DNA of 17,588 nt from a virus (lineage: Duplodnaviria > Heunggongvirae > Uroviricota > Caudoviricetes). The stretch spans positions 1-17,588 of IMG/VR virus record IMGVR_UViG_2734482774_000007. One strand, written 5' to 3'. Made by a program: the position numbers and the translations under genes. The notes beneath the pieces were generated by a model. That model had not been told where the DNA came from, searched no databases, and was given only the letters and a program-made list of their open reading frames with translations. Shown here piece by piece: positions 1 to 16,607 of the stretch (within the stretch, counting starts at the first letter, position 1; each line of letters starts with the position of its first letter).

Positions 1-1260
1 ATGAAGCTCAACGCCAGACAGGTCGAGACCGCAAAGCCAAAAGACAAAACCTATAAAATGGCCGATGGCGGAGGTCTGTATCTTGAGGTTTCGGCCAAGG
101 GTTCTAAATACTGGCGCATGAAATACAGACGCCCCTCAGACAAAAAAGAGGATCGCCTCGCTTTTGGTGTTTGGCCTACTGTGACGCTTGCTCAGGCAAG
201 AGCAAAGCGCGACGAAGCTAAAAAGCTTTTAGTGCAGGGCATTGATCCAAAAGCCGAACAGAAAGAAGCTCAGGCCGAGAATTCAGGGGCATATACTTTC
301 GAAACCATTGCTCGTGAATGGCATGCCAGTAACAAGCGATGGAGTGAAGACCATCGATCGCGCGTTCTTCGCTATCTTGAGCTTTATATCTTCCCTCATA
401 TCGGTTCGTCCGACATTCGCCAGCTCAAAACCAGCCACCTATTAGCCCCGATTAAAAAAGTTGATGCCAGTGGTAAACACGACGTCGCTCAGCGCCTACA
501 ACAGCGCGTCACGGCCATTATGCGGTATGCGGTACAGAACGATTACATCGACTCAAATCCAGCAAGTGACATGGCCGGTGCGTTATCGACAACCAAAGCA
601 CGACACTATCCAGCTTTACCCTCTAACCGTTTCCCTGAGTTTCTTGCACGTCTTGCTGCATATCGTGGCCGTTTAATGACACGGATTGCAGTCGAGCTTT
701 CCTTACTAACTTTTGTGCGTTCCAGTGAGTTGCGTTTCGCTCGCTGGGATGAATTCGACTTCGATAAATCTCTTTGGCGTATACCGGCAAAACGAGAAGA
801 AATTAAAGGTGTCCGTTACTCGTACCGTGGGATGAAGATGAAAGAGGAGCATATCGTTCCGCTTAGTCGGCAGGCGATGATTTTGTTAGAGCAGCTTAAG
901 CAGATTAGTGGTGATAAAGAGCTACTGTTTCCGGGAGATCATGACGCAACTAAAGTTATGAGTGAAAACACGGTTAACAGTGCTTTGCGCACAATGGGGT
1001 ATGACACAAAAACCGAAGTTTGCGGGCATGGATTCAGAACTATGGCGCGCGGTGCTTTGGGCGAATCAGGGTTGTGGAGTGATGACGCGATAGAACGTCA
1101 GCTAAGCCACTCTGAGCGTAATAGCGTTAGGGCTGCTTATATTCATACTTCAGAGCATTTGGATGAGCGTCGTTTAATGGTTCAGTGGTGGGCCGATTAT
1201 CTTGATGCTAACACTCAGGAATATATAACCCCCTACGACTTTGCAAAAAAAACTATCTAG
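1..1260 (+). CDS. intB: P4-family tyrosine integrase (site-specific recombinase)
   Basis: 419-aa ORF. N-terminal arm-binding region AKPKDKTYKMADGGGLYLEVSAKGSKYWRMKYR; catalytic region with VRSSELRFARW (Arg box), HGFRTMARG (H-x-x-R) and RAAYIHT (catalytic Tyr). ATG sits at nt 1, so the true start could lie upstream of the window. The symbol is inferred from leuX context and nanS at the far end. Confidence 0.85.
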   Translation: MKLNARQVETAKPKDKTYKMADGGGLYLEVSAKGSKYWRMKYRRPSDKKEDRLAFGVWPTVTLAQARAKRDEAKKLLVQGIDPKAEQKEAQAENSGAYTFETIAREWHASNKRWSEDHRSRVLRYLELYIFPHIGSSDIRQLKTSHLLAPIKKVDASGKHDVAQRLQQRVTAIMRYAVQNDYIDSNPASDMAGALSTTKARHYPALPSNRFPEFLARLAAYRGRLMTRIAVELSLLTFVRSSELRFARWDEFDFDKSLWRIPAKREEIKGVRYSYRGMKMKEEHIVPLSRQAMILLEQLKQISGDKELLFPGDHDATKVMSENTVNSALRTMGYDTKTEVCGHGFRTMARGALGESGLWSDDAIERQLSHSERNSVRAAYIHTSEHLDERRLMVQWWADYLDANTQEYITPYDFAKKTI

Positions 1261-1275
1261 CTTTAAAAATTTTAA

Positions 1276-1307
1276 AGTAGGGTCAAAGACCCTACTAATT
1301 ATTTTTT
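1276..1307. terminator. Bidirectional rho-independent terminator between convergent int and herA
   Basis: Perfect 9-bp stem agtagggtc / gaccctact (1276-1284 / 1288-1296) with loop aaa, T-run aattatttttt on the + strand and ttaaaattttt on the - strand. Confidence 0.7.
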
Positions 1308-3020
1308 CCATATATTGCAATAGCCTGGAGAATCAGATTCTGGTGGATATATTGGCTTATCTATCTGGATGGTCATAGGAATAGGGAAGTCAACCCCTAC
1401 AAGAGCAACTTCACCTTGTTTGAGACTTGGTAGAAAAGATGCTGCAGATTTATCAATTTCACCGCATGCACGCTCAACGACTTCTCGATCTCGGTCGTTT
1501 GTTAAGCGATGAACCAATAAGGTTCCAATTTGACTAAGCACACCTTCAGTGATATCTCTGGGTCTTTGAGTTGTTAAGCATATATTAAGGCCATATTTCC
1601 TGCCTTCTTTTGCAATCATCTCAAAAGCGTCAAGTTTAATTGCATGATCTTCAGAACCAACCCGTTTGCCAAGGAAGTTATGGGCTTCATCAACAATAAC
1701 TAACAGCGGTCTTGTTCTGAATTTTTCAAGCCTAGCTAAAGTTAAAAGTTTTCTGCCGATTACATTGGCTAAAATTTCTCTAGCATAAAACTCATAGCTA
1801 ACATCACTTAGGCATAACCTTAGGACTCGTTTATCAGATTGTAAAAAAGTTTCTAATATTTCACCTAGTGTGGATATATCCTCGTTACTATTAAAAACAG
1901 ACCTTAACGAGTTGGCATACGTTACTGCTTGAATTCTGGTTAACAAAGATGAGCAATAGCTTAAGTCTTGAGTTGCAGCGTTTCCCCAAGTATTATCTCC
2001 ATTATCGTAACAACATTCTTGTACAATCTGTTTTATAAGTTTTGTTATATCAAATGGTTGTGATGGATTATCAACAAGTTTAGAGTTGTCTCCAGTATTC
2101 ATTGCGCGTCGATAATCTGTTTTAGGTTGATTGATTTTTTTTAAAATACCATCGGTTGCTATTCTAGGTTCTAAAGCTACTAATCTAAGGCTTTTTATCG
2201 CTTCTTTTAGCTTAGGACCCTGTACTTTTCCAGAAGGATCGAACATGGCAATAAAGTCTGACTCAACAAAGTCGGTAGGTGGAATTCTAAATTCTAAAGA
2301 ATTTATGTTTTTATTTATTGGGGCACCTAAATGGTAATGTAAACAATAATCAGATTTAAACGATCTATACTCACTGGTTGCATCAATTATTATAGTTTTA
2401 GAGTTTTCGTAATTCGAACACTCTTCAATTAACTTGGAAGTTGTCCAACTTTTTCCACCGCCTGTAGCTCCTAAGATAGCACAATGACGACCGAAGAGTT
2501 TATCAGGTTCAACAGTTACTATACTTGTTGCCCCTCCAGATATAATGCCTAATACAATACCTATTCTTTCTTCCTCGTTATCTTTAATTCCTTTATTAAT
2601 TAATTCTGGTATTAAAGAAATAAAATCTAAGGGAGCAGAATAAACTCGATCTCCTAATCGAGGATATGATTTGATTCCTGAATCAATTCTAAAATTTGAA
2701 GGATCAATAGTTCCAAGAAGTTGTATAATGCCGATAGCATCAACTTTGAAGTTTCCTTGAGACCCGACAGATATTTCACCTCTATCTCGCTCTGGTAATT
2801 TAACCTCTATTAAACGGCCAAGAACAATAGATTGTTGTCCTTCTATTAATAATATTTCACCAACTTCTCCTTTTCCATATCTACAACCTTCTATATATGT
2901 TCCGCTGAGTTCCCCTGCATAGATTAAATTTGCTCTAACTGTTTGAGCAAAAATTGATGAGACTACTCCAACCTTAAGGTCGCCCCTCAAAATACCAAGC
3001 TGTAGTGTTGTATTAATCAT
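1299..3020 (-). CDS. herA: HerA-like ATPase, second gene of a SIR2-HerA anti-phage module
   Basis: 573-aa ORF. Walker A GATGGGKSWT and Walker B LLVIVDEAHNF. Start ATG overlaps the upstream gene's stop (ATGA at 3017-3020). Markedly AT-rich codon usage compared with flanking genes. Confidence 0.8.
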   Translation of the reverse strand: MINTTLQLGILRGDLKVGVVSSIFAQTVRANLIYAGELSGTYIEGCRYGKGEVGEILLIEGQQSIVLGRLIEVKLPERDRGEISVGSQGNFKVDAIGIIQLLGTIDPSNFRIDSGIKSYPRLGDRVYSAPLDFISLIPELINKGIKDNEEERIGIVLGIISGGATSIVTVEPDKLFGRHCAILGATGGGKSWTTSKLIEECSNYENSKTIIIDATSEYRSFKSDYCLHYHLGAPINKNINSLEFRIPPTDFVESDFIAMFDPSGKVQGPKLKEAIKSLRLVALEPRIATDGILKKINQPKTDYRRAMNTGDNSKLVDNPSQPFDITKLIKQIVQECCYDNGDNTWGNAATQDLSYCSSLLTRIQAVTYANSLRSVFNSNEDISTLGEILETFLQSDKRVLRLCLSDVSYEFYAREILANVIGRKLLTLARLEKFRTRPLLVIVDEAHNFLGKRVGSEDHAIKLDAFEMIAKEGRKYGLNICLTTQRPRDITEGVLSQIGTLLVHRLTNDRDREVVERACGEIDKSAASFLPSLKQGEVALVGVDFPIPMTIQIDKPIYPPESDSPGYCNIWKK

Positions 3021-4315
3021 AATTGATTGTTAACTCCTACTTGTTTTATTACCTTAGCCAACTGTTCTGCTGGGGTTAATGCTTTAAGATTGGGAACTAA
3101 TTTAACAAAATCACTGAAAGATGCATTTATGAAGTGAATGTCATAACCTGATAGTGAGAGTTGTTTTAGTAAATCCCAATATTTACTAGAACCGTCCCCC
3201 CCTTTATTCCGAATATGAGTTGCACATTTGAAATCTACTATAATCAACCTCATGCTTGGATTGGATTTTATTGCTGAGTAAATTGGTTCAGAAAGATGGT
3301 CATCATTGAAACCAAATCCAGATATAACTAAACAGTTATTTCTTTTTCTCAAGAAATCTAACAATCTTGAAAGTAATTCTAAGTGAGGTTGAATAAAGGC
3401 TTGCTGATATTTACCTTTCGCTGGATATATTAGACATGCGTTTGTTGCTGTTGGTTGGCTGGATTCATATATTTGCCCATCCTTTCTTATCCAACTTACA
3501 GAACCGTGGAGTTTAAATAACTGGAATACGCCCTCTACAAACTCATGCTCGTTTTCATCTCTTTTAACAACATCGTAGTTAAAATATTTACCATCGAATC
3601 TGCGAACTCCTGTATATGAAAGACCATCAACTACCATCATTCCTAATTCAGAAGCAGCTGTTTCAAAGGCTAAATCATAGTTAGTTGTGAAAACTTTTAG
3701 TCTAGGATCTCTGACTCTCCTCCTCCCCATTTTTTGTAATAAATTGATGTAAGCTGAAAGATCACAGTTGCCATCATCAATAAATGAGCGACATTTGTCT
3801 AAAATAATTGTTTTAACTTTATTTAAAAAATTCAACACTTCTTCATCATCATGAAATGCTAAATATGCTTCACAATTAGAAAGAAAGTGTTCTATGTTAG
3901 GATACTCTCGCTCTTTATATTTTACTTTATCACAAACAATTTGAGCATCAGGTTTTAATTGACCATCCTCGTTTATAGAAGATTCACTCCACATTGCACA
4001 CTTCCAGAGATCCCACATGCTTGGTCCTCCAACGTCCCCAAGCGAAGTACCACTCCCAGCGAAGAATGCAAGATTTGGGAATTGTAATGATTTTAGTAAT
4101 AGTTCGTTTATATATGCCTGATTGTCTTTCAACTCCTTCTTTTCACCATCAGTAAGAGATTGTGCTGGAGAAATAGAATCTCCTGACTCTTCTAAACTTT
4201 CATTCGTTATGTAGTCTCGCCAATAAATAAACGATTTACTATCTAATGCTTTCCAGTCGTTACTACCGGGTTTTAAAAATGAGATGTATCCGTCCGGATT
4301 TGTAGTCATAATCAT
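3017..4315 (-). CDS. sir2: SIR2-family (SIR2_2-type) putative NADase, first gene of the SIR2-HerA module
   Basis: 432-aa ORF. Rossmann-like FFAGSGTS, signature VFTTNYDLAFE (catalytic Asn) and FKLHGSVSW (catalytic His). Translationally coupled to herA. AT-rich. Confidence 0.8.
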   Translation of the reverse strand: MIMTTNPDGYISFLKPGSNDWKALDSKSFIYWRDYITNESLEESGDSISPAQSLTDGEKKELKDNQAYINELLLKSLQFPNLAFFAGSGTSLGDVGGPSMWDLWKCAMWSESSINEDGQLKPDAQIVCDKVKYKEREYPNIEHFLSNCEAYLAFHDDEEVLNFLNKVKTIILDKCRSFIDDGNCDLSAYINLLQKMGRRRVRDPRLKVFTTNYDLAFETAASELGMMVVDGLSYTGVRRFDGKYFNYDVVKRDENEHEFVEGVFQLFKLHGSVSWIRKDGQIYESSQPTATNACLIYPAKGKYQQAFIQPHLELLSRLLDFLRKRNNCLVISGFGFNDDHLSEPIYSAIKSNPSMRLIIVDFKCATHIRNKGGDGSSKYWDLLKQLSLSGYDIHFINASFSDFVKLVPNLKALTPAEQLAKVIKQVGVNNQL

Positions 4316-4872
4316 TATCCATTGATGTCATTAAGAGTTTGTTCCCAATAATTTACTACACCACGGCTGGAAGAAAAAGTAATCACAATCACTATCTTTG
4401 ACTACAGTGCGCACAATTATCTTCCCGCCACGCTTGCCCACCTTTAATACACGTGCATGTTTGATCTGAGGTCTTACGATATCTTGTACAGGTAGAGGTT
4501 ACAAGAGTGAGAACCATGCTCACTAAGGATGACAAATCTATAAATATTACCCGTAGCGCCGCTCAGTTTACGTGTGCTGCATCGATACACTGCAGTTCTT
4601 GAATCATTGCGGAGATTTCAGCAACTGCCAGCCAGTATCTCGTCAATCATTGTCACCGCCTGCGCGGCTGAGTTTGCTATTTTCTCCCTTAGCGCGAGCA
4701 GCCCCGCCCGCCTGCCCGCTTCGCTTAACAGACTGGTTTTCATGCACCCCGTAAATCGTCTCAGAAGCCACCACACAAGGGCTTTCGCGTCAAAAATGGC
4801 GCATGAGACTCATGCGTTTTCATGCGCCATAGATATGCACTCATACGCTCTCAGGCCAGCCAGGGAAAAGGC

Positions 4873-4899
4873 GTAAAAAATCCCGGTACTGGACCGGGA
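4873..4899 (-). terminator. Rho-independent terminator downstream of the sid-psu-ogr operon
   Basis: 7-bp stem tcccggt / accggga (4881-4887 / 4893-4899) with loop actgg, followed on the - strand by TTTTTTAC (4873-4880). Lies 22 nt past the ogr-like stop. Confidence 0.65.
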
Positions 4900-4921
4900 C
4901 TTCGTGGTCGTATTTTGCTAA

Positions 4922-5194
4922 TCAGACAGGAATTTGCTGACGGTTTGACAGCTTTGACGCGGAGCCATAGCGATTGAGAGTTTGCTGTTGTTTTTCCGGT
5001 ATTTTTGCTTTGTCTGATTCCTGTTCATTGCACCGAGGCTTCATAATTATCGTATCCACGCTTTCCAGTGCGGTAAATGTGCAGGAACATTCCAGATTCT
5101 GGCACTGATACCATGAGCGTTTAACCGACGGAGCTTCATAGGCGCTGGTTCTGGCGTGAGCGACCGCGCCACATTCAGGACACTTCAGGGCCAT
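4922..5194 (-). CDS. Ogr/Delta-family zinc-finger late transcription activator
   Basis: MALKCPECGAVAHARTSAYEAPSVKRSWYQCQNLECSCTFTALESV matches the P2 Ogr C-x2-C...C-x4-C zinc-finger pattern. ATG at 5192-5194 is preceded by AAGGAG with a 9-nt spacer, 1 nt after the psu stop. The ORF track's longer start at 5296 would overlap psu. Confidence 0.75.
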   Translation of the reverse strand: MALKCPECGAVAHARTSAYEAPSVKRSWYQCQNLECSCTFTALESVDTIIMKPRCNEQESDKAKIPEKQQQTLNRYGSASKLSNRQQIPV

Positions 5195-5195
5195 A

Positions 5196-5750
5196 TCAGC
5201 ACACTCCTTTTTCATTAAGTCGGTTAAGGCGGGCCAGGAAAACTTTATGTTGTGCCGGGGTGAAACTGGCTGAAGCATCAGCGCGCATTGATGCATCCAC
5301 CGTTAATCCGGTTTCGTCGATAATGCTCTTATATGCTGCTGAAATTACCGGAGTACGGACTTCCGTTTGTCGGGCTACAGCGGTTCGTAATATTTTCATT
5401 GCCGCCTCAAGCCCGTATGGTGCACAAAGAAAAGGAGCCAGAGCGTCAGTGAGTGCATCACCATGCTCGCTCATGAAGTTTTCAGTTGCGCTTGTAACAC
5501 AGCTTTCCAGCACAATCTGGTGAGCATAAAGACCATCCCGGGCGGCACAGTTAATCTGCCATTCGAGGAGTGCAAGACGCTCACGAAGATCCTCAAGTTG
5601 GCTGGCATATGCTGCGGGTTTTTCTTCAGTATCCAGCAAAGCAGCCAGACGAAGCTGGCTGGTACTTTGCACATTACGTAGTGTCAGCCAGCTTTTTATT
5701 GCCGCGCGGTAATCGTTGAGAGCTTCCTGAGTAATGGTTCCGGTATTCAT
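5196..5750 (-). CDS. psu: Psu-like polarity suppression protein
   Basis: 184 aa, close to P4 Psu size. Recalled similarity to P4 Psu (ALTDALAP..., ...FTPAQHKVF...). Start overlaps the sid-like stop (ATGA at 5747-5750). SD GAGAAGGA upstream. Confidence 0.7.
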   Translation of the reverse strand: MNTGTITQEALNDYRAAIKSWLTLRNVQSTSQLRLAALLDTEEKPAAYASQLEDLRERLALLEWQINCAARDGLYAHQIVLESCVTSATENFMSEHGDALTDALAPFLCAPYGLEAAMKILRTAVARQTEVRTPVISAAYKSIIDETGLTVDASMRADASASFTPAQHKVFLARLNRLNEKGVC

Positions 5751-6499
5751 TCCTTCTCGCCCCCTTTAGCCATGTCACGCTGTTTAAGCATCCGGGAACG
5801 TGCTGCAGGGCTGGGTGATTGTCTGGCATCCTGTATGGCTTTATCGTCCGCATAAATGCTGATCCCCGGCAGGGCAATATCATCCGTTGAAGATACGTTA
5901 CAGAACAGTGCCGGAGTGGTGAGTTGCTCGCTGATAAATTGCTTCAGCACACTTTCGGGGTCGTTTACGGTATGAACTACACCGATAACAGAAGATGCGC
6001 TTCGGCCCAGAGTCATTTTCAGCAGTCCAAGGATCTGAATAAGTTTCTGGCCGTGTTCCTTCATAAACTCATTCCAGAGCCACACTGCATGAGTTTCAAT
6101 CAGGTGATTATGTTCGCTGATGTAGCGGTTTGCAGCATCCGCAGTTTTCCATGGCAGGAATTCATTTTCTGCAGCCTGAGCAGCCAGCAAATCTTCGAAC
6201 TCATCTAGTGTTTCGCGTCCGAGGGCGATTTCTGCCCGCAGTTTTTTCATTCGTGGCGTCATATTCCCCTGATTCTCACGAAACAGGTTTCGCCATTCAT
6301 CATTAAGCGCCTGCGTCTCCGTTTTTGTATCTTCCTGACGTTTACGGATAGTTTCAGTCATTGCAGCAGCTTCGGTTTGTTTTCGCCGTTCTTCCTGCCA
6401 GACAGCTTTTGCTGCCTTAACTTTTTCCACCGCTTCGCGAATTTTCGGCGGGAGGGTGGGGGTAATGTTTGCATCAGAGATCTGGTTAACAGTTGTCAT
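5747..6499 (-). CDS. Sid-like capsid size-determination (external scaffold) protein, putative
   Basis: 250 aa from the ATG at 6499, which follows a GGAG SD; the track's start at 6532 is a TTG. Helical, charged sequence; position immediately upstream of psu as in the P4 late operon. Assignment is positional and compositional only. Confidence 0.5.
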   Translation of the reverse strand: MTTVNQISDANITPTLPPKIREAVEKVKAAKAVWQEERRKQTEAAAMTETIRKRQEDTKTETQALNDEWRNLFRENQGNMTPRMKKLRAEIALGRETLDEFEDLLAAQAAENEFLPWKTADAANRYISEHNHLIETHAVWLWNEFMKEHGQKLIQILGLLKMTLGRSASSVIGVVHTVNDPESVLKQFISEQLTTPALFCNVSSTDDIALPGISIYADDKAIQDARQSPSPAARSRMLKQRDMAKGGEKE

Positions 6500-6571
6500 G
6501 GCTGCTCCGGTAGTGTTTTGTTGTTGTGTCAATTGTGCCGGGGTCCATACAAGCGCACTACCGAGGAGGAT

Positions 6572-7404: not shown

Positions 7405-7665
7405 ATGAATAGTATTTCCGTTTCCACCCCGGCACCAGCTGCTCCGGTGCTCCCGGTTCCGGCTCAGCAGGAGCGCTTCATACGATTACCTGAAGTGATG
7501 CACCTTTGCGGGCTATCCCGTTCAACCATCTACGACCTTATCAGCCGCGATGCCTTCCCGCAGCAGATATCCCTGGGTGGAAAAAATGTGGCCTGGGTAC
7601 AGTCGGAGGTCAGTGCATGGATGGCGGCGCGAATTGCTGCCCGCGAGCAAGGAGGCCATGCGTGA
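7405..7665 (+). CDS. alpA: AlpA/Vis-family phage transcriptional regulator (excisionase-like HTH)
   Basis: 86 aa. [47 protein letters not shown] fits the AlpA family HTH pattern. SD GAGAGG 7 nt upstream. Sits where P4 carries vis. Confidence 0.8.
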
Positions 7666-7759
7666 AACTTGCTTTGCAGTCTCATCTCCTTTTTTCTGGC
7701 TTGCGTCCTGATATCTTTTCCAGGTATAGTTTTCCCGCTGCCGCAAAATCGGCTGCCGG

Positions 7760-8007
7760 GCGTAGGAACCCGAGTTACTTATTGGCGACACCAGACGCGC
7801 CGTGCGTCTTTTTTTACGTCGTTGCTCAGGCACACCCATTTTTCGGGCTGCGGTGCTTATACCTTAGCCCCTTTCAGATAATGGTGGTCCGGGCGGGGCA
7901 GCCTTCGGGCTGGCCGGTTTCCAATAAGGCCGGTATTCCTACCCCCGTTCGGGTCACCACCCATGAGCGTAGGAACTCCGGTGGTGGCATTTACCGCTAC
8001 TTATTGG
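7760..8007 (+). promoter_or_regulatory. P4-type RNA immunity region: seqA-like (7760-7785), seqB/CI-like (7921-7942), seqC-like (7967-8007)
   Basis: A and C share the identical 10-mers gcgtaggaac and tacttattgg. B (ccaataaggccggtattcctac) carries the reverse complements ccaataag and ttcctac, so B can pair with either A or C. The region also holds several GC stems, including a UUCG-loop hairpin ggcagccttcgggctg near 7897. Confidence 0.45.
7793..7815 (+). terminator. Rho-independent terminator directly after the seqA-like element
   Basis: Stem agacgc / gcgtct (7793-7798 / 7804-7809) with loop gccgt, followed by a 7-T run to 7815. Confidence 0.6.
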
Positions 8008-8209
8008 AGGTTGCCCTTATGGCTACGATCCTCGCCCCGTCACATCCTCAATTTATATTTGTTTTTGCCGCCGTTCGTCGTGCAGAACGTAAACCACGTA
8101 TCAGTATGCTGCGTATCATCGCCAGCAATGAGCATCATGCACGTCTTTCACTGGTCCATGAGTATGTGCTTTGTCTTGCTGCTCGCCTGCCTGTCCGGGA
8201 GGTGATCTA

Positions 8210-8434
8210 ATGAATCACGCCGCAATCTCTTATGACGATATTCTCCGCCTGAAGCATCTTCGTAACGTGGGAGAGTTTGTCACTGGAATGGCTGTTCTTC
8301 AGGATTGCTACGAAAAACCTGCCAGTGCTCAATGTGAACAACTGGTTTCCCTGATTTATCTGATGACAGAGCAGCTTGATGGCGTGGTACAGCGTTGCCA
8401 GGATGACCTCATGAACATGGAGGTGGTGCAATGA
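8210..8434 (+). CDS. Hypothetical small protein in the satellite left operon
   Basis: 74 aa from the ATG at 8210, which follows SD GGGAGG with a 7-nt spacer. Stop overlaps the next ORF's start (ATGA at 8431-8434). Confidence 0.55.
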
Positions 8435-8754
8435 AATCACGCACTCTTTCCCTTTCACTTCGGGTAGCGTTGTATCGCCGCGCGGTAGCCTGCGCCTGGT
8501 TGAGTGCCTGCTATCAGCAAAACCGCCATCTGCAGCTCACTCTGGATGAAATTGAAACCGCTATTGCCCGTGAGCTTGAAGGATTTTATCTGCGACAGCA
8601 CGGGCAAACAAAAGGCATGGAAATCGCCTGCGCCCTGCTTTCAGACCTGATGGAATACGGCCCTCTAATGTCCTGTCCCGCACTCTCCCAGCTCGGAATA
8701 GCCGTAATGGATGAGTTATGCGTCCGTCACATCAAAAAGCCGGTTTTACACTGA
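8431..8754 (+). CDS. Hypothetical protein in the satellite left operon, immediately upstream of the primase
   Basis: 107-aa ORF, translationally coupled to the upstream ORF and ending 14 nt before the primase start. Confidence 0.55.
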
Positions 8755-8768
8755 GGGAGAACTGCGTC

Positions 8769-11102
8769 ATGTCAGGAATGAAAGTCAGTCAGGCCGTGAA
8801 GGCTGCCCGCGGTCACTGGGCTCAGATTCTGCCAGCGCTGGGCGTGAATATATTGAAAAATCGCCATCAGCCTTGCCCGGTCTGTGGCGGTAAAGATCGT
8901 TTTCGCTTCGACGATCAGGAAGGACGCGGAACATGGTTCTGCAATCAGTGCGGAGCCGGGGATGGTTTAGCGCTTGTCACCAGGGCACTGAATGTGGATA
9001 TCAGTGAAGCAGCTGACAGGATACATGGACTGACACATGATCTGTCTATAGTTAATTCCGAGGTCAGGACGTTAACCGCCGATACCGATAGCGGGAAAGA
9101 TGCAGCGGCAGCACTTGCCGCGCGACTGCTGCAAGCCTCGCGTGAATCTGCCGGAAACACTTATCTTACACATAAAGGTTTCCCGGAGCATATTTGCCAT
9201 GAGCTGACTTCAGCTCATAAGGCCGGTGGTGTGATGTTCCGCCCCGGTGATTTGATCGTCCCACTCTATAACGCTGACGGGGAGCTGGTGAATATTCAGC
9301 TTATCAGTGGCAATGGTAGCAAGTGTTTTCTTAAAGGAGGTCAGGTTAAGGAGGCCTATCATCTGATAGAAGGGGGCGGGAGTTCTGTAAGAAGGATTTG
9401 GATTGCGGAAGGTTACGCCACGGCGCTTACCATTCATTATTTGACAGGAGAAGCCGTCATGGTGGCATTTTCGTCGGTCAACTTTCTTTCTCTGAGCAGC
9501 GTTGCCCATAATAAGTATCCTGGATATCAGTTAATTATTGCAGCGGACCGCGATCTGAATGGTTCAGGCCAGAACAGGGCTGAAACTGCTGCAAAAGCGA
9601 GTCAGTGTGACATTGTGCTGCCACCGGTTTTTGGTGACTGGAATGATGCGCTTACCCAATACGGAGAGGAATCCACCCGGAAGGCAATTCTTGAGGCTTT
9701 GAAGCCACATAACGCCAGTCCTTTCGACACAATGAGTGAAGCAGAATTCACAGCGATGAGTGTCAGCGAAAAAGCTCAGAGGGTTCGGGAGCATTACAGG
9801 GATGCACTGGCGGTTGATCCGAACGGGCAGCTTTTATCCCGCTACGAGTCTGGAGCGTGGAAAGTTATTTCTCAGTCAGATTTTGCCCGAGATGTCGCAG
9901 CCCTTTTCCAGCGCCTCGGGGCACCGTTTTCCTCAGGAAAAATTGCCTCACTGGTGGAAACATTAAAGTTAATTGTTCCGCAGCAGCAAAATCCGTCACG
10001 TCATCTGATTGGTTTTCGTAATGGCGTTCTCGATACGCGAACAGGGCTTTTTAGTCCGCACTGTAAAGAGAACTGGCTGCGTACCCTGTGTGAAGTCGAT
10101 TTCACGCCACCGGTAAAGGGGGAAACGCTTGAAACTCATGCCCCGGCATTCTGGCGTTGGTTGGACCGGGCCGCCGGACACAAGCCAGCAAAACGCGACA
10201 TTATTCTTGCAGCGTTATTTATGGTGCTGGCGAACCGTTATGACTGGCAGCTCTTTCTGGAAGTGACTGGCCCTGGTGGAAGTGGCAAAAGTATTCTGGC
10301 TGAAATTGCGACCATGCTTGCTGGAGAGGATAACGCCACCTCTGCGACCATTGAAACGCTGGAGTCCCCGCGAGAACGTGCGGCTCTGATAGGTTTTTCT
10401 CTTATTCGCCTGCCTGATCAGGAGAAGTGGAGCGGCGACGGCGCCGGGCTTAAGGCTATAACTGGTGGCGATGCAGTATCTGTGGACCCCAAATATCAGA
10501 ATGCTTATTCAACACATATTCCGGCGGTTATCCTGGCCGTAAATAATAATCCTATGCGCTTCACTGATCGCAGTGGTGGTGTGTCCCGCAGGAGAGTTAT
10601 TCTGCATTTTCCTGAGCAGATAGCACCGGAAGAACGCGATCCGCAGTTGAAAGATAAAATTGCACGAGAACTGGCTGTGATTGTTCGTCAGCTCATGCAG
10701 CGTTTCAGCGATCCGATGAGCGCCAGAACATTGCTTCAGTCGCAGCAGAATTCTGATGAGGCTCTCACCATCAAGCGTGATGCTGATCCAGCATTTGATT
10801 TTTGTGGCTACCTTGAGGCATTACCTGACACCAACGGCATGTTTATGGGGAACGCCAATATTGTCCCGCGCCAGCCACGTACGTACCTTTACCATGCCTA
10901 TCTCGTATACATGGAGGCTAATGGCTTTAAAAATACCCTTAGCCTGACAATGTTTGGCAAAGGGCTACCAGTTATGCTGAAGGAATACGGGCTAAATTAT
11001 GAGAAGCGGCGAACTAATCAGGGAATGCAGACTAACCTCACTTTAAAAGAGGAAAGTAATGCAGACTGGCTTCCCAAGTGTGATGAGCTAACAATCAAAT
11101 AA
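8769..11102 (+). CDS. P4 alpha-type primase-helicase
   Basis: 777 aa from the ATG at 8769 (SD GAGGGAGA 9 nt upstream); the track's 8718 start is non-ATG. Zinc-binding primase motif CPVCGGKDRFRFDD...CNQCG; Walker A GPGGSGKS in the C-terminal helicase part. Length equals that recalled for P4 alpha. Confidence 0.9.
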   Translation: MSGMKVSQAVKAARGHWAQILPALGVNILKNRHQPCPVCGGKDRFRFDDQEGRGTWFCNQCGAGDGLALVTRALNVDISEAADRIHGLTHDLSIVNSEVRTLTADTDSGKDAAAALAARLLQASRESAGNTYLTHKGFPEHICHELTSAHKAGGVMFRPGDLIVPLYNADGELVNIQLISGNGSKCFLKGGQVKEAYHLIEGGGSSVRRIWIAEGYATALTIHYLTGEAVMVAFSSVNFLSLSSVAHNKYPGYQLIIAADRDLNGSGQNRAETAAKASQCDIVLPPVFGDWNDALTQYGEESTRKAILEALKPHNASPFDTMSEAEFTAMSVSEKAQRVREHYRDALAVDPNGQLLSRYESGAWKVISQSDFARDVAALFQRLGAPFSSGKIASLVETLKLIVPQQQNPSRHLIGFRNGVLDTRTGLFSPHCKENWLRTLCEVDFTPPVKGETLETHAPAFWRWLDRAAGHKPAKRDIILAALFMVLANRYDWQLFLEVTGPGGSGKSILAEIATMLAGEDNATSATIETLESPRERAALIGFSLIRLPDQEKWSGDGAGLKAITGGDAVSVDPKYQNAYSTHIPAVILAVNNNPMRFTDRSGGVSRRRVILHFPEQIAPEERDPQLKDKIARELAVIVRQLMQRFSDPMSARTLLQSQQNSDEALTIKRDADPAFDFCGYLEALPDTNGMFMGNANIVPRQPRTYLYHAYLVYMEANGFKNTLSLTMFGKGLPVMLKEYGLNYEKRRTNQGMQTNLTLKEESNADWLPKCDELTIK

Positions 11103-11453: not shown

Positions 11454-11473
11454 CGAGTCCGGCCTTCGCACCA
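11454..11473 (+). repeat. attR: direct repeat of the 3' end of tRNA-Leu (leuX)
   Basis: cgagtccggccttcgcacca resembles the recalled leuX 3' end (T-loop end, T-stem, acceptor stem, CCA) with one G missing. Upstream sequence is not tRNA-like, so only the 3' core is duplicated. Confidence 0.6.
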
Positions 11474-11489
11474 CACCGTATGCAAATCG

Positions 11490-11513
11490 AGCCGCTCAAG
11501 AGCGGCTTTTTTT
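11490..11513 (+). terminator. Rho-independent terminator following the tRNA-3'-end repeat (displaced native tRNA terminator)
   Basis: Stem agccgctc / gagcggct with a short loop, followed by a 7-T run. Confidence 0.6.
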
Positions 11514-11697
11514 GTGTCTGAAATCCGTTAGTTACCTATCTTTCTCGCTATTTTAACTCTCTCAGGGCTAACCAATTCCAACCCATCGCAAACGAAAAAT
11601 GTTGGTACAGGCGTTGGTATTTTCGGTTCGACATTAATTTGTATTAGCTCAGTCCTGATCTGACAGCTATCTGCCAGATCAGGTTCGGATTAATACA

Positions 11698-12548
11698 TTA
11701 TATCTGCCCGCCTACACCTTTAAACTTCTCAATAAACGCGACGATCTTCTGGAAAACCGTCTGTTTTTTCGTCTTATATTGCGGATTTAACGGACTGAGT
11801 TTTGGCAATGTCTCGTTTAATTCCGTGCCATTTTCGGTGGCGTATTCGCGTTTTAAAGACGTGCGAATATAGCGTTTCGCCGCCTCTTCATTGAGATTTT
11901 CTTCTTTGATCAAGGCTTCTGCTTCACGTTGCTGTTCGCGTTGAGCAAAGGTAAAAAACGCGTCAATGATGCTGGCTTTATCCGGCAAATCATCCAGGTT
12001 CGTTTGCTGAATAAAATCGACCACCAGACCTTCTTTGGCACGGTTACCAAGGCTCGAACGAATTAAGCGCTTGACCTCTTCGGTCATTTCGCCCTTACCT
12101 TTGTTTTGTCTGTTGTGTTCGAAAATCAGTCCAAGGATATAATCCAGGTTTATTTCCTGAGACTTCAGCAAATCGACCTCAAAAACCACGTCATCCCAGT
12201 CGGTGGTTGATTTTTCTTTTTTGTCAGCTTCTTTCTCACGGCGCTGCCAGTCACGAATATCGTTATAGGCTGAACGATAATCCTGAATCTTGCGATCAGC
12301 AGGGAGACGAATTATTTGCAATTCAGCGAGCTTTTCATCATCCACATAATGTTCTGCTTTGAATTTTTCTACTGCAACAGGATCACTAAGATCGATTTGT
12401 TGCAGGGCTTTCAGCGTGGCAAATTCATCATAGTTTTGCAGGATGTTCTCGGCACGCAGGTATTCACCAAACAGTTTTACGAAGTCTTTCTTCTCTTTTT
12501 CACTTTCAATATTGGCAGGGTCAGGGAACCGTTGTTCCAGTTCTGAAA
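11698..12548 (-). pseudogene. Type I restriction enzyme R subunit (HsdR) C-terminal fragment
   Basis: The frame is open from about 12545 to the stop at 11698 (about 283 codons) with no plausible ATG/RBS at its 5' end. Helical sequence ([10 protein letters not shown]..., [43 protein letters not shown]) resembles the conserved HsdR C-terminal domain as recalled. No helicase or nuclease motifs are present. Confidence 0.5.
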
Positions 12549-12803
12549 CTAGATGAAGTAGCCTTTGGTTTTGATGGCATCGTCTTTAATGTCATCAGTT
12601 ATTACGCTGTCATCCAGTTTCGCATAACAGATACTGTCATCACCGGCTTCAATATAGCTGGAAAAATTTTCGCTGATAAAACGGTAGAAAAGCGCGCCCA
12701 GAACGTATTGCTTAAAGTCCCATCCATCGACCGAACCTCTGACATCGTTAGCAATTTGCCAGATCTGGCGATGAAGCTCCGCGCGCTGCTGAAGACTGGT
12801 CAT
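12549..12803 (-). pseudogene. Type I R-M methyltransferase (HsdM) N-terminal fragment, truncated after 84 codons
   Basis: LQQRAELHRQIWQIANDVRGSVDGWDFKQYVLGALFYRFISENF is a typical HsdM N-terminal domain signature. Good RBS (AAGGA, 6-nt spacer) at the ATG at 12803. The frame ends in TAG and continues in another frame into the HsdR-like sequence, with no methyltransferase motifs. Confidence 0.65.
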
Positions 12804-13109
12804 TTTTTATCCTTTGAATGTGTTTTTAACGTCGGCTTTTGCCGGGATTTTACCGGAAGTTTTTTGGTTTTTCAGATTTGTATGATGGTGAGGAGGGGAT
12901 TCAGCACCAGATTGTTAGTGCATCTTACTCAGCATTCACCGCTTGAGTCAGGAGGCTACTTTATATGTCCATCGTCCATCCGTAGGTGATCAGATAATTT
13001 ATTGCGAGTCACCTTCCCGATTTTCAATCTCATTATTTACCCAATCTTTCACCAGTGGATAATTCGTCTGCTACTAACGGCGAGTGTATTTTTTTACGGA
13101 TGAAAGATT

Positions 13110-13943
13110 ATGCAAACAGAAGCTGAAGTCTTAACCGATCATAACGAACTAATTTGCTCGACCAGTATTGAGCGTATCGTCACAGGACGTGATAGTGCAC
13201 TGAACCAGATAGCGGCGTTAATCCAAAAGCTTGATGATATCTCCAGCCTGACATCCAGTATTGGCGGTGATGTGGCTGGAACCTGGGCAATGCGTAATGG
13301 ATATGCCTTTGATTGCTGGCTGATGCAGCCAACCGACAAAGCGATGCCGGTGATCACCCGAAATATCGATCGCAGTATCTGGCGCGATCTCATGCTGAAG
13401 TCCGGGATGTTGACTCTGATGGATGCCGAAGCCCGCAGTCAGTGGGCAAAGAACCTGGAGGAGGGCGATCTCCCGGCGATTAGCGAAGCCAACATCCTGA
13501 GTACCTTTGAACAACTTCACCACAATAAGCAGGACGTTTTCGAACGTGGGATTATCAATGTATTTAAGGGATTAAGCTGGGACTACAAAACCAATAATCC
13601 CTGTTATTTCGGTAAGAAGATTATCGTTAACAATCTGGTGAAGCATGACAGATGGGGCTACAGCCTGAACTGGGGCTGGCGGCGAGATCAGCTTGCCGAT
13701 CTGGAACGGATGTTCTATCTGCTGGATGGGAAGACCATTCCCGATAACCGGCATGATGTTGCGATTCGGTTTATGGACTTCGTTAGTGCTCACCCGCATG
13801 AACAGGTATTTGATGACGATTTATTTGTCATCCGCTATTACCAGAAAGGCAGTGGGCATATCACTTTCAAGCGACTGGATCTGGTGGATAAGATGAATGA
13901 TATCGTGGCGAAGCACTTTCCGTCAGCGTTATCAGCAAAATGA
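13110..13943 (+). CDS. Hypothetical protein (277 aa) immediately upstream of the AbiE pair
   Basis: Long ORF with ordinary codon usage and no motif I can assign by eye. Ends 70 bp before the AbiEi-like start on the same strand. Confidence 0.6.
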   Translation: MQTEAEVLTDHNELICSTSIERIVTGRDSALNQIAALIQKLDDISSLTSSIGGDVAGTWAMRNGYAFDCWLMQPTDKAMPVITRNIDRSIWRDLMLKSGMLTLMDAEARSQWAKNLEEGDLPAISEANILSTFEQLHHNKQDVFERGIINVFKGLSWDYKTNNPCYFGKKIIVNNLVKHDRWGYSLNWGWRRDQLADLERMFYLLDGKTIPDNRHDVAIRFMDFVSAHPHEQVFDDDLFVIRYYQKGSGHITFKRLDLVDKMNDIVAKHFPSALSAK

Positions 13944-14012
13944 ATGTCGTATGTTTGCTATCTAAAATGTCGTATTTTTGCTACTCTTTATGCAATGACT
14001 CTGGAGGCGAAT

Positions 14013-14408
14013 ATGACGATAAAAGCACGCATTCAGTCACGACTGAAACGTTCTAAACGTTACGTATTCACTCGTGACGACTTTAAAGATATTGCAGGCT
14101 ACGATCAGGTTGGTCGGGTATTGCGCGAGCTTGTCAGGGAAGGGCAACTGTTGAAGGTTGGTTATGGCGTGTATACCAAAGCACGGCGGAACGGTATTAC
14201 AGGCAAGGTAATGCCAGCGGCTCCCGGAGGCTCTTCAGCGGTGATTGTCGAAACGCTGGAACGCCTGAAAGTACGCTATCGTTTTGCTGGCGCAACGCAG
14301 GCATACAATAGCGGTACTTCTACGCAGATCCCAGCTTCACCCGAGATAAAAACCCCCCGGCGTTTTAAACGCGTATTATCTGTAGGGAACAGCAGATTAA
14401 ATGGATGA
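14013..14408 (+). CDS. AbiEi-family antitoxin / transcriptional regulator (type IV TA, abortive infection)
   Basis: 131 aa from the ATG at 14013 (SD GGAGG, 5-nt spacer). N-terminal RYVFTRDDFKDIAGYDQVGRVLRELVREGQLLKVGYGVYTKA fits the AbiEi winged-helix pattern. Stop overlaps the AbiEii start by 8 nt. Confidence 0.7.
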   Translation: MTIKARIQSRLKRSKRYVFTRDDFKDIAGYDQVGRVLRELVREGQLLKVGYGVYTKARRNGITGKVMPAAPGGSSAVIVETLERLKVRYRFAGATQAYNSGTSTQIPASPEIKTPRRFKRVLSVGNSRLNG

Positions 14409-15348
14409 TTTAACCACTCTTTTTTCTGAAGTGGCTGACGCGCTTGGTATTGAGTCTGTCGCAATTGTGGAAAAAGATCACTATATCGTTGAGCTTTTGC
14501 AATTGCTTAAACCTCTGGTGTTCGATACTCATCAATTGGTATTTGCCGGAGGAACCGCTCTGGCAAAATCAGGTGTCGCACTTAATCGCATGTCGGAAGA
14601 TGTGGATATCAAACTGGTGCCTAAGGATGCATTTCAGGCACTTTCCCGCACTCAGCGAAAAAATACCCGTAAAGAAATTGTTCAGGCAGTTTCCAGTGCA
14701 ATAGCTTCATCGGGTGTGTTCAATTTTGATGATGATTACCCAAAAGTGACGCGGGATGAATATCGTTATAATGACATACCTGTTCGTTATCCACAGCGAG
14801 TAGTGCAGGCACCTTGTTTGCGTCCTTTTATCCGGCTGGAATTGATGGAAGCGAAGTTACTGGAGCCTTCTGAATTACGGGATATTCATTCACTGGTAAC
14901 AGGGATCACGGGAAAAGCGGCTATTGTTTCAGCGTTTCCATGCGCAACTATCATTAGCTCACAGGCAGAAAAGCTGGTGGCGATGTTACGTCGTACTGCG
15001 GCAGTTGTGCGAGATGTTGAGCGATTTGATGATGCATCGCTGGTACGTCATATCTACGATACAAACTGTATTGTTGAGACGAGTCATGTTGATATGAGTC
15101 TGCTCGTTGATTTTGTTCAACAAACTATTGAGCAGGACATTCAGCGTTACGGCAACCAGTACCCGCAGTTTTGCGCGTCTCCAGTTGATGAGCTAAAAAT
15201 GGGACTGGATGAGTTGGCGAACAATCCTCTCTACGAGATGCGCTATCAGCAGTTTGTTTCGCCAATGGTGTATGGAGAGCGAAAGATCACATGGGATGAG
15301 GCTTACTCCAGGTTTAGGAGCTTAGCGCTAGCCATCCTGAATGCTTGA
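14401..15348 (+). CDS. AbiEii-family nucleotidyltransferase toxin (type IV TA, abortive infection)
   Basis: 315 aa. Nucleotidyltransferase motif LVFAGGTALAKSGVALNRMSEDVDIKL (GG...S-E-D-x-D) near the N-terminus. Confidence 0.8.
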   Translation: MDDLTTLFSEVADALGIESVAIVEKDHYIVELLQLLKPLVFDTHQLVFAGGTALAKSGVALNRMSEDVDIKLVPKDAFQALSRTQRKNTRKEIVQAVSSAIASSGVFNFDDDYPKVTRDEYRYNDIPVRYPQRVVQAPCLRPFIRLELMEAKLLEPSELRDIHSLVTGITGKAAIVSAFPCATIISSQAEKLVAMLRRTAAVVRDVERFDDASLVRHIYDTNCIVETSHVDMSLLVDFVQQTIEQDIQRYGNQYPQFCASPVDELKMGLDELANNPLYEMRYQQFVSPMVYGERKITWDEAYSRFRSLALAILNA

Positions 15349-15385
15349 TATGCAGCATTGTCTTTACTTGAAATTCTGAAATTCT

Positions 15386-15571
15386 CTAAACCATAGAGAT
15401 GATTTTTATGATCCAGTCTTTCTCTTGTTGAGATAGTTCCAGTTTGCTCACTCGTGTTAAGAAGGTATTGATCACCTGAACATCCGAATTGGTGAGCCTA
15501 TTTAATAGAGCGGGTGGTATACCTTTACTAACAATCGCTTTGCGGTGACTTTCGTAGTTTTTATTACTCAT
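15386..15571 (-). CDS. Small hypothetical protein (61 aa)
   Basis: ATG at 15569-15571 preceded by GAGGA with a 6-nt spacer. AT-rich. No recognisable motif. Confidence 0.4.
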   Translation of the reverse strand: MSNKNYESHRKAIVSKGIPPALLNRLTNSDVQVINTFLTRVSKLELSQQEKDWIIKIISMV

Positions 15572-15636
15572 TGTTGATCCTCAAATATCATTGTATGGCG
15601 GCATTGATCGTTTCCAGCAACCTTTACTTACTCACT

Positions 15637-15813
15637 TCAAACTGCATCCTCGTAGACTGTTCCACTACAATAATCGAAAAGGCGTGGATGTCCATTCAGG
15701 TATCCCGCTAATACGTATAGCAATAACAATGGTTTATGCGGTGCGCGCTGTTCACCCTTATGCCAGATTTTTATATTGGCAATTGCCTGCTGTAGCGATT
15801 TACTGGAAGCCAT
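15637..15813 (-). CDS. Small hypothetical protein (about 58 aa from the internal ATG)
   Basis: The track ORF starts at a TTG (15870). The internal ATG at 15811-15813 (MASSKSLQQ...) is preceded by AGGGA with a 5-nt spacer. Could be a fragment. Confidence 0.3.
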   Translation of the reverse strand: MASSKSLQQAIANIKIWHKGEQRAPHKPLLLLYVLAGYLNGHPRLFDYCSGTVYEDAV

Positions 15814-15949
15814 TGATATCCCTGGCAGTGAAATAATTGCGATCATGCTCGCAAATTTTCTGCTGTTCAAGCCTGCAAGTGAAGATATATTACTTTGATC
15901 TCATTTGTTTTTTTGCTGCTTGTTCTGAGAACGTATAAGGACATTCTCT

Positions 15950-16600: not shown

Positions 16601-16607
16601 TGAACGC

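What the first reader, a model, noticed from the sequence alone, without database searches (positions are those of the whole stretch)
1299..4315. SIR2-HerA two-gene anti-phage module in the integrase-proximal cargo slot of a P4-like satellite
Two translationally coupled minus-strand genes (ATGA overlap at 3017-3020) encode a SIR2_2-type protein (TTNYD and LHGS catalytic signatures, GSGTS Rossmann loop) and a HerA-like ATPase (Walker A GATGGGKS, Walker B VIVDEAH). They are far more AT-rich than the flanking int and ogr/psu/sid genes and sit where P4 carries its variable genes, a location known to hold interchangeable defence systems. SIR2-HerA pairs are reported to defend by NAD+ depletion. This is the clearest defence cargo in the window.
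Basis: partly seen in the sequence, partly recalled or inferred. Interest (0 to 1): 0.8.

Follow-up and report, generated by a model that had tools for sequence, protein, structure and literature searches.

The report
SIR2-HerA phage defence in P4 satellite

Summary

Profile searches give full-length matches to the PADLOC SIR2 (7e-82) and HerA (1.7e-166) models. SIR2 N212 and H270 align with the mutationally validated catalytic N226 and H287 of S. aureus Sir2. Predicted folds match only SIR2 and HerA subunits of solved defence complexes.

The host element is a P4-like satellite at tRNA-Leu, with int, sid, psu, delta, alpha, C4 RNA, a cos-like core and attR. The 3.4-kb cargo lies exactly between cos and int. 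About 860 E. coli genomes share the backbone there, but only about 22 carry this cargo.

Rousset et al. 2022 already list SIR2+HerA among the systems of this hotspot, although their catalogued representative is a different lineage. This clade is about 23% identical to the characterised E. coli system and falls below NCBIfam equivalog cut-offs. I found no report that it has been tested experimentally.

The likely mechanism, by homology only, is a HerA hexamer activating a SIR2 oligomer to deplete NAD+ and abort infection. Verdict: supported, a new member of a known kind, low interest.

The parts
3017..4315 (-). SIR2 gene, 432 aa from the ATG at 4315 (RefSeq WP_001402808 starts at 4309, 430 aa). 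Rossmann loop GSGTS is at 4043-4057. The catalytic Asn212 codon is 3680-3682 and the His270 codon is 3506-3508.
   Evidence: Pfam SIR2_2 3.4e-11. PADLOC SIR2 PDLC04075 7e-82 over aa 55-430. Closest solved chain is 8j4u_A, the E. coli Nezha Sir2, at 2.3e-20. N212 and H270 align to SaSir2 N226 and H287. The Foldseek top 36 hits are all SIR2 subunits of SIR2-HerA complexes.
1299..3020 (-). HerA gene, 573 aa (WP_001402807, annotated 'ATP-binding protein'). It has an N-terminal beta-barrel region and a RecA-like ATPase. Walker A GATGGGKS is at 2448-2471 and Walker B VIVDEAH at 1680-1700.
   Evidence: Pfam DUF87 6.7e-19 and HerA_C 9e-06. PADLOC HerA PDLC04103 1.7e-166 over aa 15-573. Closest solved chain is 8wiv_A at 3.5e-31. 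The AF2 model has pLDDT 81, and Foldseek gives 5e-34 with TM 0.69-0.71 to Paenibacillus SIR2/HerA HerA.
3017..3020 (-). ATGA overlap between the SIR2 stop codon and the HerA start codon. Translational coupling is inferred, not shown.
   Evidence: Read directly from the sequence. The same 4-nt overlap occurs in Pseudomonas putida and Paraburkholderia homologues.
1276..1296 (.). GC-rich hairpin flanked by A and T runs, lying between the convergent int and herA stop codons. It is a likely bidirectional intrinsic terminator.
   Evidence: Terminator scan: 9-bp stem, 5 GC pairs; sequence read.
4316..4680 (-). Cargo-specific leader upstream of SIR2, presumed to hold the module's own promoter. Only the last ~46 bp (4316-4361) are shared with the Serratia copy of the module.
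   Evidence: E. coli backbone homology stops at about 4678-4701. Serratia homology starts at 4361. No consensus sigma-70 site was found on the minus strand here, so the promoter is not located.
4702..4724 (-). cos-like core of the satellite. It marks the backbone edge of the hotspot.
   Evidence: A 21/24 match to the joined P4 cos sequence GCAAAGCGGGCG|GGCGAGGCGGGG. The exact 19-nt P2/P4 cos was not found within 3 mismatches, so this assignment is tentative.
1..1260 (+). P4-type tyrosine integrase, the other edge of the hotspot.
   Evidence: PHROG integrase 1e-59. RefSeq context places it directly after tRNA-Leu.
4922..6532 (-). Satellite late operon: sid (5747-6532), psu (5196-5750) and ogr/delta (4922-5194).
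   Evidence: PHROGs 6165 and 6366, and Pfam Ogr_Delta; RefSeq annotation.
11455..11474 (+). attR, a repeat of the 3' end of tRNA-Leu with one base missing. It marks the right end of the ~11.6-kb satellite.
   Evidence: Comparison of the L001 tRNA-Leu 3' end with the window sequence.

Best explanation
The module is a functional SIR2-HerA (Nezha-type) abortive-infection defence system, carried as cargo in the cos-int hotspot of a P4-like satellite integrated at tRNA-Leu in E. coli.

Shown here:
- The gene pair is intact, overlapping and under purifying selection.
- SIR2 keeps the NAD-binding loop and the catalytic Asn and His.
- HerA keeps Walker A and B and the full HerA fold.
- The cassette is one of many alternatives at this position in related satellites.

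Inferred from characterised homologues that are only about 20-25% identical:
- HerA forms a hexamer whose N-terminal beta-barrels dock an N-terminal helix of a 12- to 14-subunit SIR2 ring.
- Assembly, together with an unidentified phage cue, opens the SIR2 active site.
- NAD+ is then hydrolysed to ADP-ribose and nicotinamide, stopping phage replication.
- HerA ATPase/helicase activity and a complex-associated nuclease activity may contribute.

Expression is presumed to come from a promoter in the cargo-specific leader (4316-4680). The two genes are presumed to be translationally coupled through the ATGA overlap.
For: - Motifs and ORFs.
- Pfam SIR2_2, DUF87 and HerA_C above gathering scores.
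- Full-length PADLOC SIR2 and HerA matches.
- Sequence matches to solved SIR2-HerA complexes, with catalytic residues aligned.
- Fold matches restricted to defence SIR2 and HerA subunits.
- The SIR2-HerA pair is conserved with a 4-nt overlap in Pseudomonas and in Paraburkholderia, there beside a type I R-M system and an AAA_15 gene. It also sits in the same slot of Serratia satellites.
- Catalytic and ATPase residues are invariant across 35 and 32 homologues.
- dN is 0.10-0.13 against the Serratia copy, with synonymous sites saturated.
- Module identity is 99.7-100% in the 20 listed of 22 complete E. coli genomes, and at least 99% in all 22.
- Satellite identity and hotspot boundaries.
- Literature: SIR2+HerA in the P4 hotspot; mechanism.
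Against: - No experiment exists for this clade. No paper mentions WP_001402807 or WP_001402808.
- Identity to tested systems is only about 20-24%.
- Both proteins score far below the NCBIfam anti-phage equivalog cut-offs: 123 against 500 and 150 against 800.
- The AF2 model of SIR2 is poor in the catalytic core, with pLDDT below 50 for most of residues 186-311. Active-site geometry was therefore not checked structurally.
- No promoter was identified in the leader.
- The phage trigger is unknown even for the characterised systems.
Confidence: 0.85

Rival explanations
1. The pair defends mainly through DNA-directed activities: HerA translocase/helicase plus a nuclease activity of the complex. 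On this reading NAD+ depletion is secondary or absent in this clade.
For: Characterised SIR2-HerA complexes show ATPase, helicase and nuclease activities in vitro besides NADase. The HerA fold matches DUF4297(nuclease)-HerA systems almost as well as SIR2-HerA ones.
Against: The SIR2 NAD-binding loop and the catalytic Asn and His are invariant in 35 clade members. In V. cholerae and Paenibacillus, single catalytic SIR2 mutations abolish protection. No nuclease domain was detected in either protein.
Confidence: 0.08
2. The module serves the satellite rather than the cell. It might exclude competing phages or satellites only while the satellite is active, or interfere with the helper. On this reading it is driven by read-through from the co-oriented sid-psu-delta late operon rather than by constitutive expression.
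For: The cargo is co-oriented with the late operon, as gop/beta are in P4. No sigma-70 consensus was found in the leader. Rousset et al. frame hotspot cargo as inter-viral competition.
Against: Terminator-like hairpins lie between delta and cos, at 4800-4816 and 4892-4909. The same gene pair sits in non-satellite chromosomal defence islands in Pseudomonas and Paraburkholderia, so it does not depend on satellite regulation. This reading differs from the main one in regulation and beneficiary, not in mechanism.
Confidence: 0.05
3. The cargo is inactive or decaying, or is a SIR2/HerA pair with a housekeeping role in DNA repair or deacetylation, and is not a defence system.
For: It is not annotated as defence in RefSeq, where it appears as 'SIR2 family protein' and 'ATP-binding protein'. 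It scores below the NCBIfam equivalog cut-offs.
Against: Both ORFs are intact and all motifs are present. Purifying selection is strong. The module is mobile, AT-rich and sporadic, found in 22 of 5426 genomes, and it sits in a defence hotspot and in defence islands. The best solved-structure matches are defence complexes, not sirtuin deacetylases or archaeal HerA-NurA.
Confidence: 0.02

Closest known systems
SIR2-HerA / Nezha defence system: E. coli NCTC 11129 (PDB 8j4u, 8su9), Paenibacillus sp. 453MF (8wld), S. aureus (8yhx), V. cholerae classical biotype
   Same: - Two-gene SIR2-then-HerA operon.
- SIR2_2 domain with a GxGxS loop and catalytic Asn and His in register.
- HerA with an N-terminal barrel and a RecA-like ATPase.
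- These complexes are the best and only significant solved-structure matches for the SIR2 protein.
   Different: - Identity is only about 23% for SIR2 and about 20-23% for HerA. Characterised members are similarly far from one another, at 23-28%.
- The proteins score below NCBIfam SIR2_antiphage and HerA_antiphage equivalog cut-offs.
- SIR2 has about 55 extra N-terminal residues relative to EcSir2. These are conserved within the clade (P16 and W21 invariant) and confidently modelled as a hairpin plus helix.
- I found no experimental test of this clade.
P4 psu-int (cos-adjacent) defence hotspot, Rousset et al. 2022 (PMC9122126)
   Same: The cargo lies between the integrase and the cos/late-operon edge of a P4-like satellite at tRNA-Leu. 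The backbone is shared by about 860 E. coli genomes, with this cargo in about 22. The paper lists SIR2+HerA among the known systems of the hotspot.
   Different: The paper's catalogued representative (Table S1B system 25, 'SIR2_2 | DUF87', 64 loci) is a different lineage. It shares about 30% identity with this SIR2 only around the motifs, and the HerA proteins align only around Walker A. The hotspot therefore holds at least two distant SIR2-HerA lineages. The stored copy of the table is truncated, so I could not tell whether this lineage is also listed.
DUF4297-HerA (Cap4-like nuclease plus HerA) defence system (PDB 8xau, 8ziq, 9c1m)
   Same: The HerA partner is of similar length and fold, with comparable sequence and structure scores.
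   Different: The effector here is a SIR2 NADase, not a DUF4297 nuclease.
P4 gop-beta-cII accessory genes
   Same: Same position, and for gop/beta the same orientation relative to cos and int.
   Different: The proteins are unrelated. The window cargo is a replacement, not a homologue.

Membership tests
SIR2-HerA (Nezha) defence system | Adjacent, co-oriented SIR2 and HerA genes in one operon | tested here: met
   SIR2 at 3017-4315 and HerA at 1299-3020, same strand, 4-nt overlap. The same arrangement is seen in four homologous loci.
SIR2-HerA (Nezha) defence system | SIR2_2-type domain with catalytic Asn and His at the positions validated by mutagenesis | tested here: met
   Pfam SIR2_2 scores 43.8 bits against a cut-off of 24.5. 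N212 and H270 align with SaSir2 N226 and H287 (alignment; residues defined). Both are invariant in 35 homologues.
SIR2-HerA (Nezha) defence system | HerA-family ATPase with an N-terminal barrel, a RecA-like core and Walker A/B | tested here: met
   Pfam DUF87 and HerA_C. K190, D444 and E445 are invariant. The full-length fold matches HerA of SIR2/HerA complexes, with TM 0.69-0.71 for the best.
SIR2-HerA (Nezha) defence system | Recognition by defence-catalogue profiles | tested here: met
   PADLOC SIR2 PDLC04075 7e-82 and HerA PDLC04103 1.7e-166, both near full length.
NCBIfam equivalogs SIR2_antiphage (NF042942) and HerA_antiphage (NF042943) | Score at or above the curated equivalog cut-off | tested here: not met
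   123.3 bits against a cut-off of 500, and 149.6 bits against 800. The pair belongs to the broad family but not to these curated equivalog groups.
SIR2-HerA (Nezha) defence system | Assembly of a SIR2 12- to 14-mer on a HerA hexamer, with assembly-dependent NADase | not testable with these tools
   Only monomer models could be made. Needs co-purification or cryo-EM.
SIR2-HerA (Nezha) defence system | Phage protection with NAD+ depletion | not testable with these tools
   Needs plaque and NAD+ assays. No literature mentions these accessions.
P4-like phage satellite | Core gene set (int, sid, psu, delta, alpha) plus the immunity RNA and a tRNA attachment site | tested here: met
   PHROG and Pfam hits. 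C4 and isrK RNAs above Rfam gathering scores. tRNA-Leu lies next to int in the identical E. coli D6 locus, and attR is at 11455-11474. Element length is about 11.6 kb.
P4 cos-int defence hotspot | Variable cargo bounded by conserved cos/late-operon DNA on one side and int on the other | tested here: met
   Backbone homology in 858 genomes ends at about 4678-4701, and int homology in 552 genomes ends at about 1205-1254. Only 21-23 genomes continue into this cargo. A cos-like core lies at 4702-4724.

The most novel reading that the evidence does not exclude
This clade may differ mechanistically from the solved SIR2-HerA systems. Its conserved ~55-75-residue N-terminal extension of SIR2 lies just upstream of the helix that docks onto the HerA barrels in solved complexes. 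That extension could form a different SIR2-HerA interface or act as a sensor surface. The result could be a different stoichiometry or trigger specificity, possibly tuned to the satellite's lifestyle by sparing the P2-like helper while blocking competitors.
Probability: 0.12. Interest if true: 0.4.

Novelty: new member of a known kind. Interest (0 to 1): 0.2.

Why it matters
The finding adds one well-delimited example of a known defence system in a known satellite hotspot, and a divergent one for which I found no published experimental test.

Its practical value is modest:
- It gives exact cassette boundaries (about 1255-4680).
- It shows that the P4 hotspot holds at least two distant SIR2-HerA lineages.
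- It offers a natural E. coli SIR2-HerA variant, with an N-terminal SIR2 extension, for comparative structural work on how HerA activates SIR2.

It does not open a new question.

Tried and rejected
- The leader 4316-4960 was searched against the phage collection in distant mode and gave no match.
- The exact 19-nt P2/P4 cos was searched with up to 3 mismatches and gave no match. Only a gapped alignment to the joined P4 cos gave a 21/24 hit, so the cos call stays tentative.
- The sigma-70 scan of 1150-5000 found no more sites than shuffled sequence (10 against 11.7) and none on the minus strand in the leader. The promoter is therefore not located.
- A literature search for the RefSeq accessions returned 0 papers.
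- Rousset supplementary tables were searched for these accessions and peptides and gave nothing. The stored file is truncated, so absence is not shown.
- The AF2 model of SIR2 was mediocre (pLDDT 68, TM about 0.42 to EcSir2). It was used only for family assignment, not for active-site geometry.
- dS against all homologues was saturated, so only dN is informative.
- Small ORFs in the leader and the plus-strand ORF 2131-2337 inside herA were considered as extra components. They were dismissed as unsupported: they are short, start at alternative codons, and were not examined further.
Full report
**Observation**

The first has FFAGSGTSLG, KVFTTNYD and KLHGS. The second has GATGGGKS and VIVDEAH.

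The upstream stop and downstream start share ATGA at 3017-3020. RefSeq annotates the SIR2 start two codons downstream, at 4309, which is an immaterial difference.

The module is 35.5% GC. The flanks are 47.9% (int), 51.6% (cos-delta) and 49-50% (psu, sid, alpha). In DNA of this composition, stop-free runs of 432 and 573 codons have probabilities of about 1e-15 and 2e-20.

**What the proteins are**

Pfam places the first protein in SIR2_2 (3.4e-11) and the second in DUF87/HerA central domain (6.7e-19) plus HerA_C. All three are above gathering scores.

Against PADLOC, both match near full length. SIR2 PDLC04075 scores 7e-82 over residues 55-430. HerA PDLC04103 scores 1.7e-166 over residues 15-573.

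NCBIfam's anti-phage equivalogs are hit, but far below their cut-offs: 123 against 500 bits and 150 against 800. The pair therefore belongs to the broad family but not to the curated groups built around the characterised systems.

Against solved structures by sequence, SIR2's only hits are the Sir2 subunits of three SIR2-HerA complexes: E. coli 8j4u (2e-20), S. aureus 8yhx and Paenibacillus 8w9l. HerA's best hits are the HerA subunits of SIR2-HerA and DUF4297-HerA systems.

In the printed alignment, TTNYD and KLHGS of the window protein sit on TTNYD and K(I/L)HGS of the solved proteins. Counting along 8yhx_G puts window N212 and H270 on SaSir2 N226 and H287. The S. aureus paper names these as the catalytic residues.

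The predicted structures agree with this. The HerA model is good (pLDDT 81). It matches HerA of the Paenibacillus and E. coli complexes over its whole length, with E down to 5e-34 and TM 0.69-0.71 for the best matches.

The SIR2 model is mediocre (pLDDT 68, with the catalytic core poorly modelled). Even so, its 36 significant PDB matches are all SIR2 subunits of SIR2-HerA complexes. ThsA, DSR2, SPARSA and eukaryotic sirtuins are not significant.

**Conservation**

There are at least 1,648 SIR2 and 3,129 HerA relatives among the scored candidates. The 120 best of each are mostly full-length and 52-100% identical, from Enterobacterales, Pseudomonas, Burkholderiales and marine gammaproteobacteria.

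The NAD-loop residues, N212, H270, the Walker A Lys and the Walker B Asp-Glu are invariant in alignments of 35 and 32 members.

In Pseudomonas putida and Paraburkholderia bryophila, the SIR2 homologue is followed by HerA with the same 4-nt overlap. In Paraburkholderia the pair sits directly after a type I R-M system and an AAA_15 gene pair.

In Serratia, the pair sits between ogr/delta and int of another P4-like satellite. Against that Serratia copy, dN is 0.10-0.13 while synonymous sites are saturated. This indicates strong purifying selection.

**Context**

The surrounding element is a P4-like satellite. It carries:
- a tyrosine integrase (1-1260);
- sid, psu and an ogr/delta zinc-finger gene (6532 down to 4922, minus strand);
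- an AlpA-type regulator and an Ash/Icd-like gene;
- DUF5375 and a P4 alpha-type primase (8718-11102);
- C4 antisense RNA and isrK, both above Rfam gathering scores.

In E. coli D6, which carries the module and its int-side junction at 100% identity, the integrase directly follows tRNA-Leu. A repeat of the tRNA 3' end, taken as attR, lies at window 11455-11474. That gives an element of about 11.6 kb, the size of P4.

A gapped alignment of the joined P4 cos sequence finds a 21/24 match at 4702-4724. The exact 19-mer is absent, so this is a tentative cos.

In P4 itself, the order in the integrated state is int, cII, beta, gop, cos, psu, delta, sid. The SIR2-HerA pair occupies the gop-beta-cII position and is oriented like gop and beta.

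**Cassette boundaries**

A search of 5,426 complete E. coli genomes shows the following.
- 858 genomes share the delta/cos backbone, but homology stops at window ~4678-4701.
- 552 genomes share the int 3' part, but homology stops at ~1205-1254.
- Only 21-23 genomes continue into this cargo. All are chromosomal, and the 20 listed are 99.7-100% identical.

The interchangeable cassette is therefore about 1255-4680. It consists of a hairpin terminator shared with int (1276-1296), herA, SIR2 and a 360-bp private leader. Only the last 46 bp of the leader are shared with the Serratia copy. I could not locate a promoter in it.

**Mechanism**

By homology only, the published picture is as follows.
- Sir2 alone is auto-inhibited.
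- HerA hexamers bind a 12- to 14-subunit Sir2 ring through the Sir2 N-terminal helix and the HerA beta-barrels.
- Assembly opens the active site, and NAD+ is cleaved to ADPR and nicotinamide.
- Catalytic Sir2 mutants, HerA ATPase mutants and interface mutants lose protection.
- ATPase, helicase and nuclease activities are also stimulated.
- The phage cue is unknown.

I commit to this mechanism for the window module at about 0.85. The conservation of the catalytic apparatus is shown here. The assembly, the NADase activation and the phage protection are inferred.

**Comparison with what is known**

Rousset et al. 2022 described the psu-int hotspot, adjacent to cos, and list 'SIR2 + HerA (Gao et al., 2020)' among its known systems.

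Their Table S1B system 25 ('SIR2_2 | DUF87', 64 loci) is a different lineage. It shares about 30% identity with the window SIR2 only around the motifs, and the HerA proteins align only around Walker A. The hotspot thus holds at least two distant SIR2-HerA lineages. The stored table is truncated, and I could not tell whether the present one is also listed.

Divergence of about 23% from EcSir2 is normal for this family. EcSIR2 and EcHerA are themselves only 28% and 23% identical to the Paenibacillus proteins.

The one structural peculiarity is an N-terminal extension of about 55 residues relative to EcSir2. It is conserved in the clade and confidently modelled. It precedes the helix that would dock on HerA.

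**Verdict**

The finding is a new, apparently untested member of a known kind in a known location. Interest is 0.2.

Noticed in passing
window 13944-15348 (+): An intact AbiEi/AbiEii pair with overlapping genes (PADLOC 3e-53 and 1.3e-126). It lies outside the satellite, beyond attR, and is preceded by a DUF4942 gene at 13110-13943. This is a second defence-type module in the window.
   Followed up: partly
window 11698-12345 (-) and 12549-12803 (-): Fragments of a type I restriction-modification system just outside attR: the C-terminal ~215 aa of HsdR (EcoR124_C) and the N-terminal 84 aa of HsdM. These are decayed remnants.
   Followed up: partly
window 11475-17588 compared with L001 26000-28400: The region to the right of attR differs between this window and E. 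coli D6, which carries the identical SIR2-HerA module. D6 lacks AbiE and the R-M fragments but shares the HNH endonuclease and a sialate O-acetylesterase gene, annotated as truncated in D6. This looks like a second variable region beside the satellite.
   Followed up: no
window 7737-7814 and 7877-7964 (+): isrK Hfq-binding RNA (72 bits) and C4 antisense RNA (83 bits), the P4-type immunity RNAs. They lie within or overlap mechanically listed ORFs 7506-8210 and 7963-8205.
   Followed up: no
window 4922-6532 (-): The late-operon order here is sid-psu-delta, whereas P4 has sid-delta-psu. Delta here is a single ~90-aa Ogr domain, against the 166-aa delta of P4. The listed ORF 4922-5296 is over-extended; RefSeq annotates 4922-5194.
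   Followed up: no
window 11455-11474: attR differs from the tRNA-Leu 3' end by one missing G (CGAGTCCGGCCTTCGCACCA against CGAGTCCGGCCTTCGGCACCA).
   Followed up: no
L004 7949-11202 and L005 5197-8450: Serratia P4-like satellites carry the same SIR2-HerA cargo. DNA homology of 75% runs through the cargo into the integrase 3' end but not into the leader or cos side. This suggests that cargo and int travel together, or that recombination occurs just upstream of SIR2.
   Followed up: partly
SIR2 protein residues 186-311 (window ~3383-3760): AlphaFold gave its lowest confidence (pLDDT 28-50) to the most sequence-conserved part of SIR2, including the catalytic Asn and His. The N-terminal extension, by contrast, was modelled at pLDDT 74-96. 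The cause may be the shallow alignment (35 sequences, all at least 54% identical) or a region that orders only in the oligomer.
   Followed up: no
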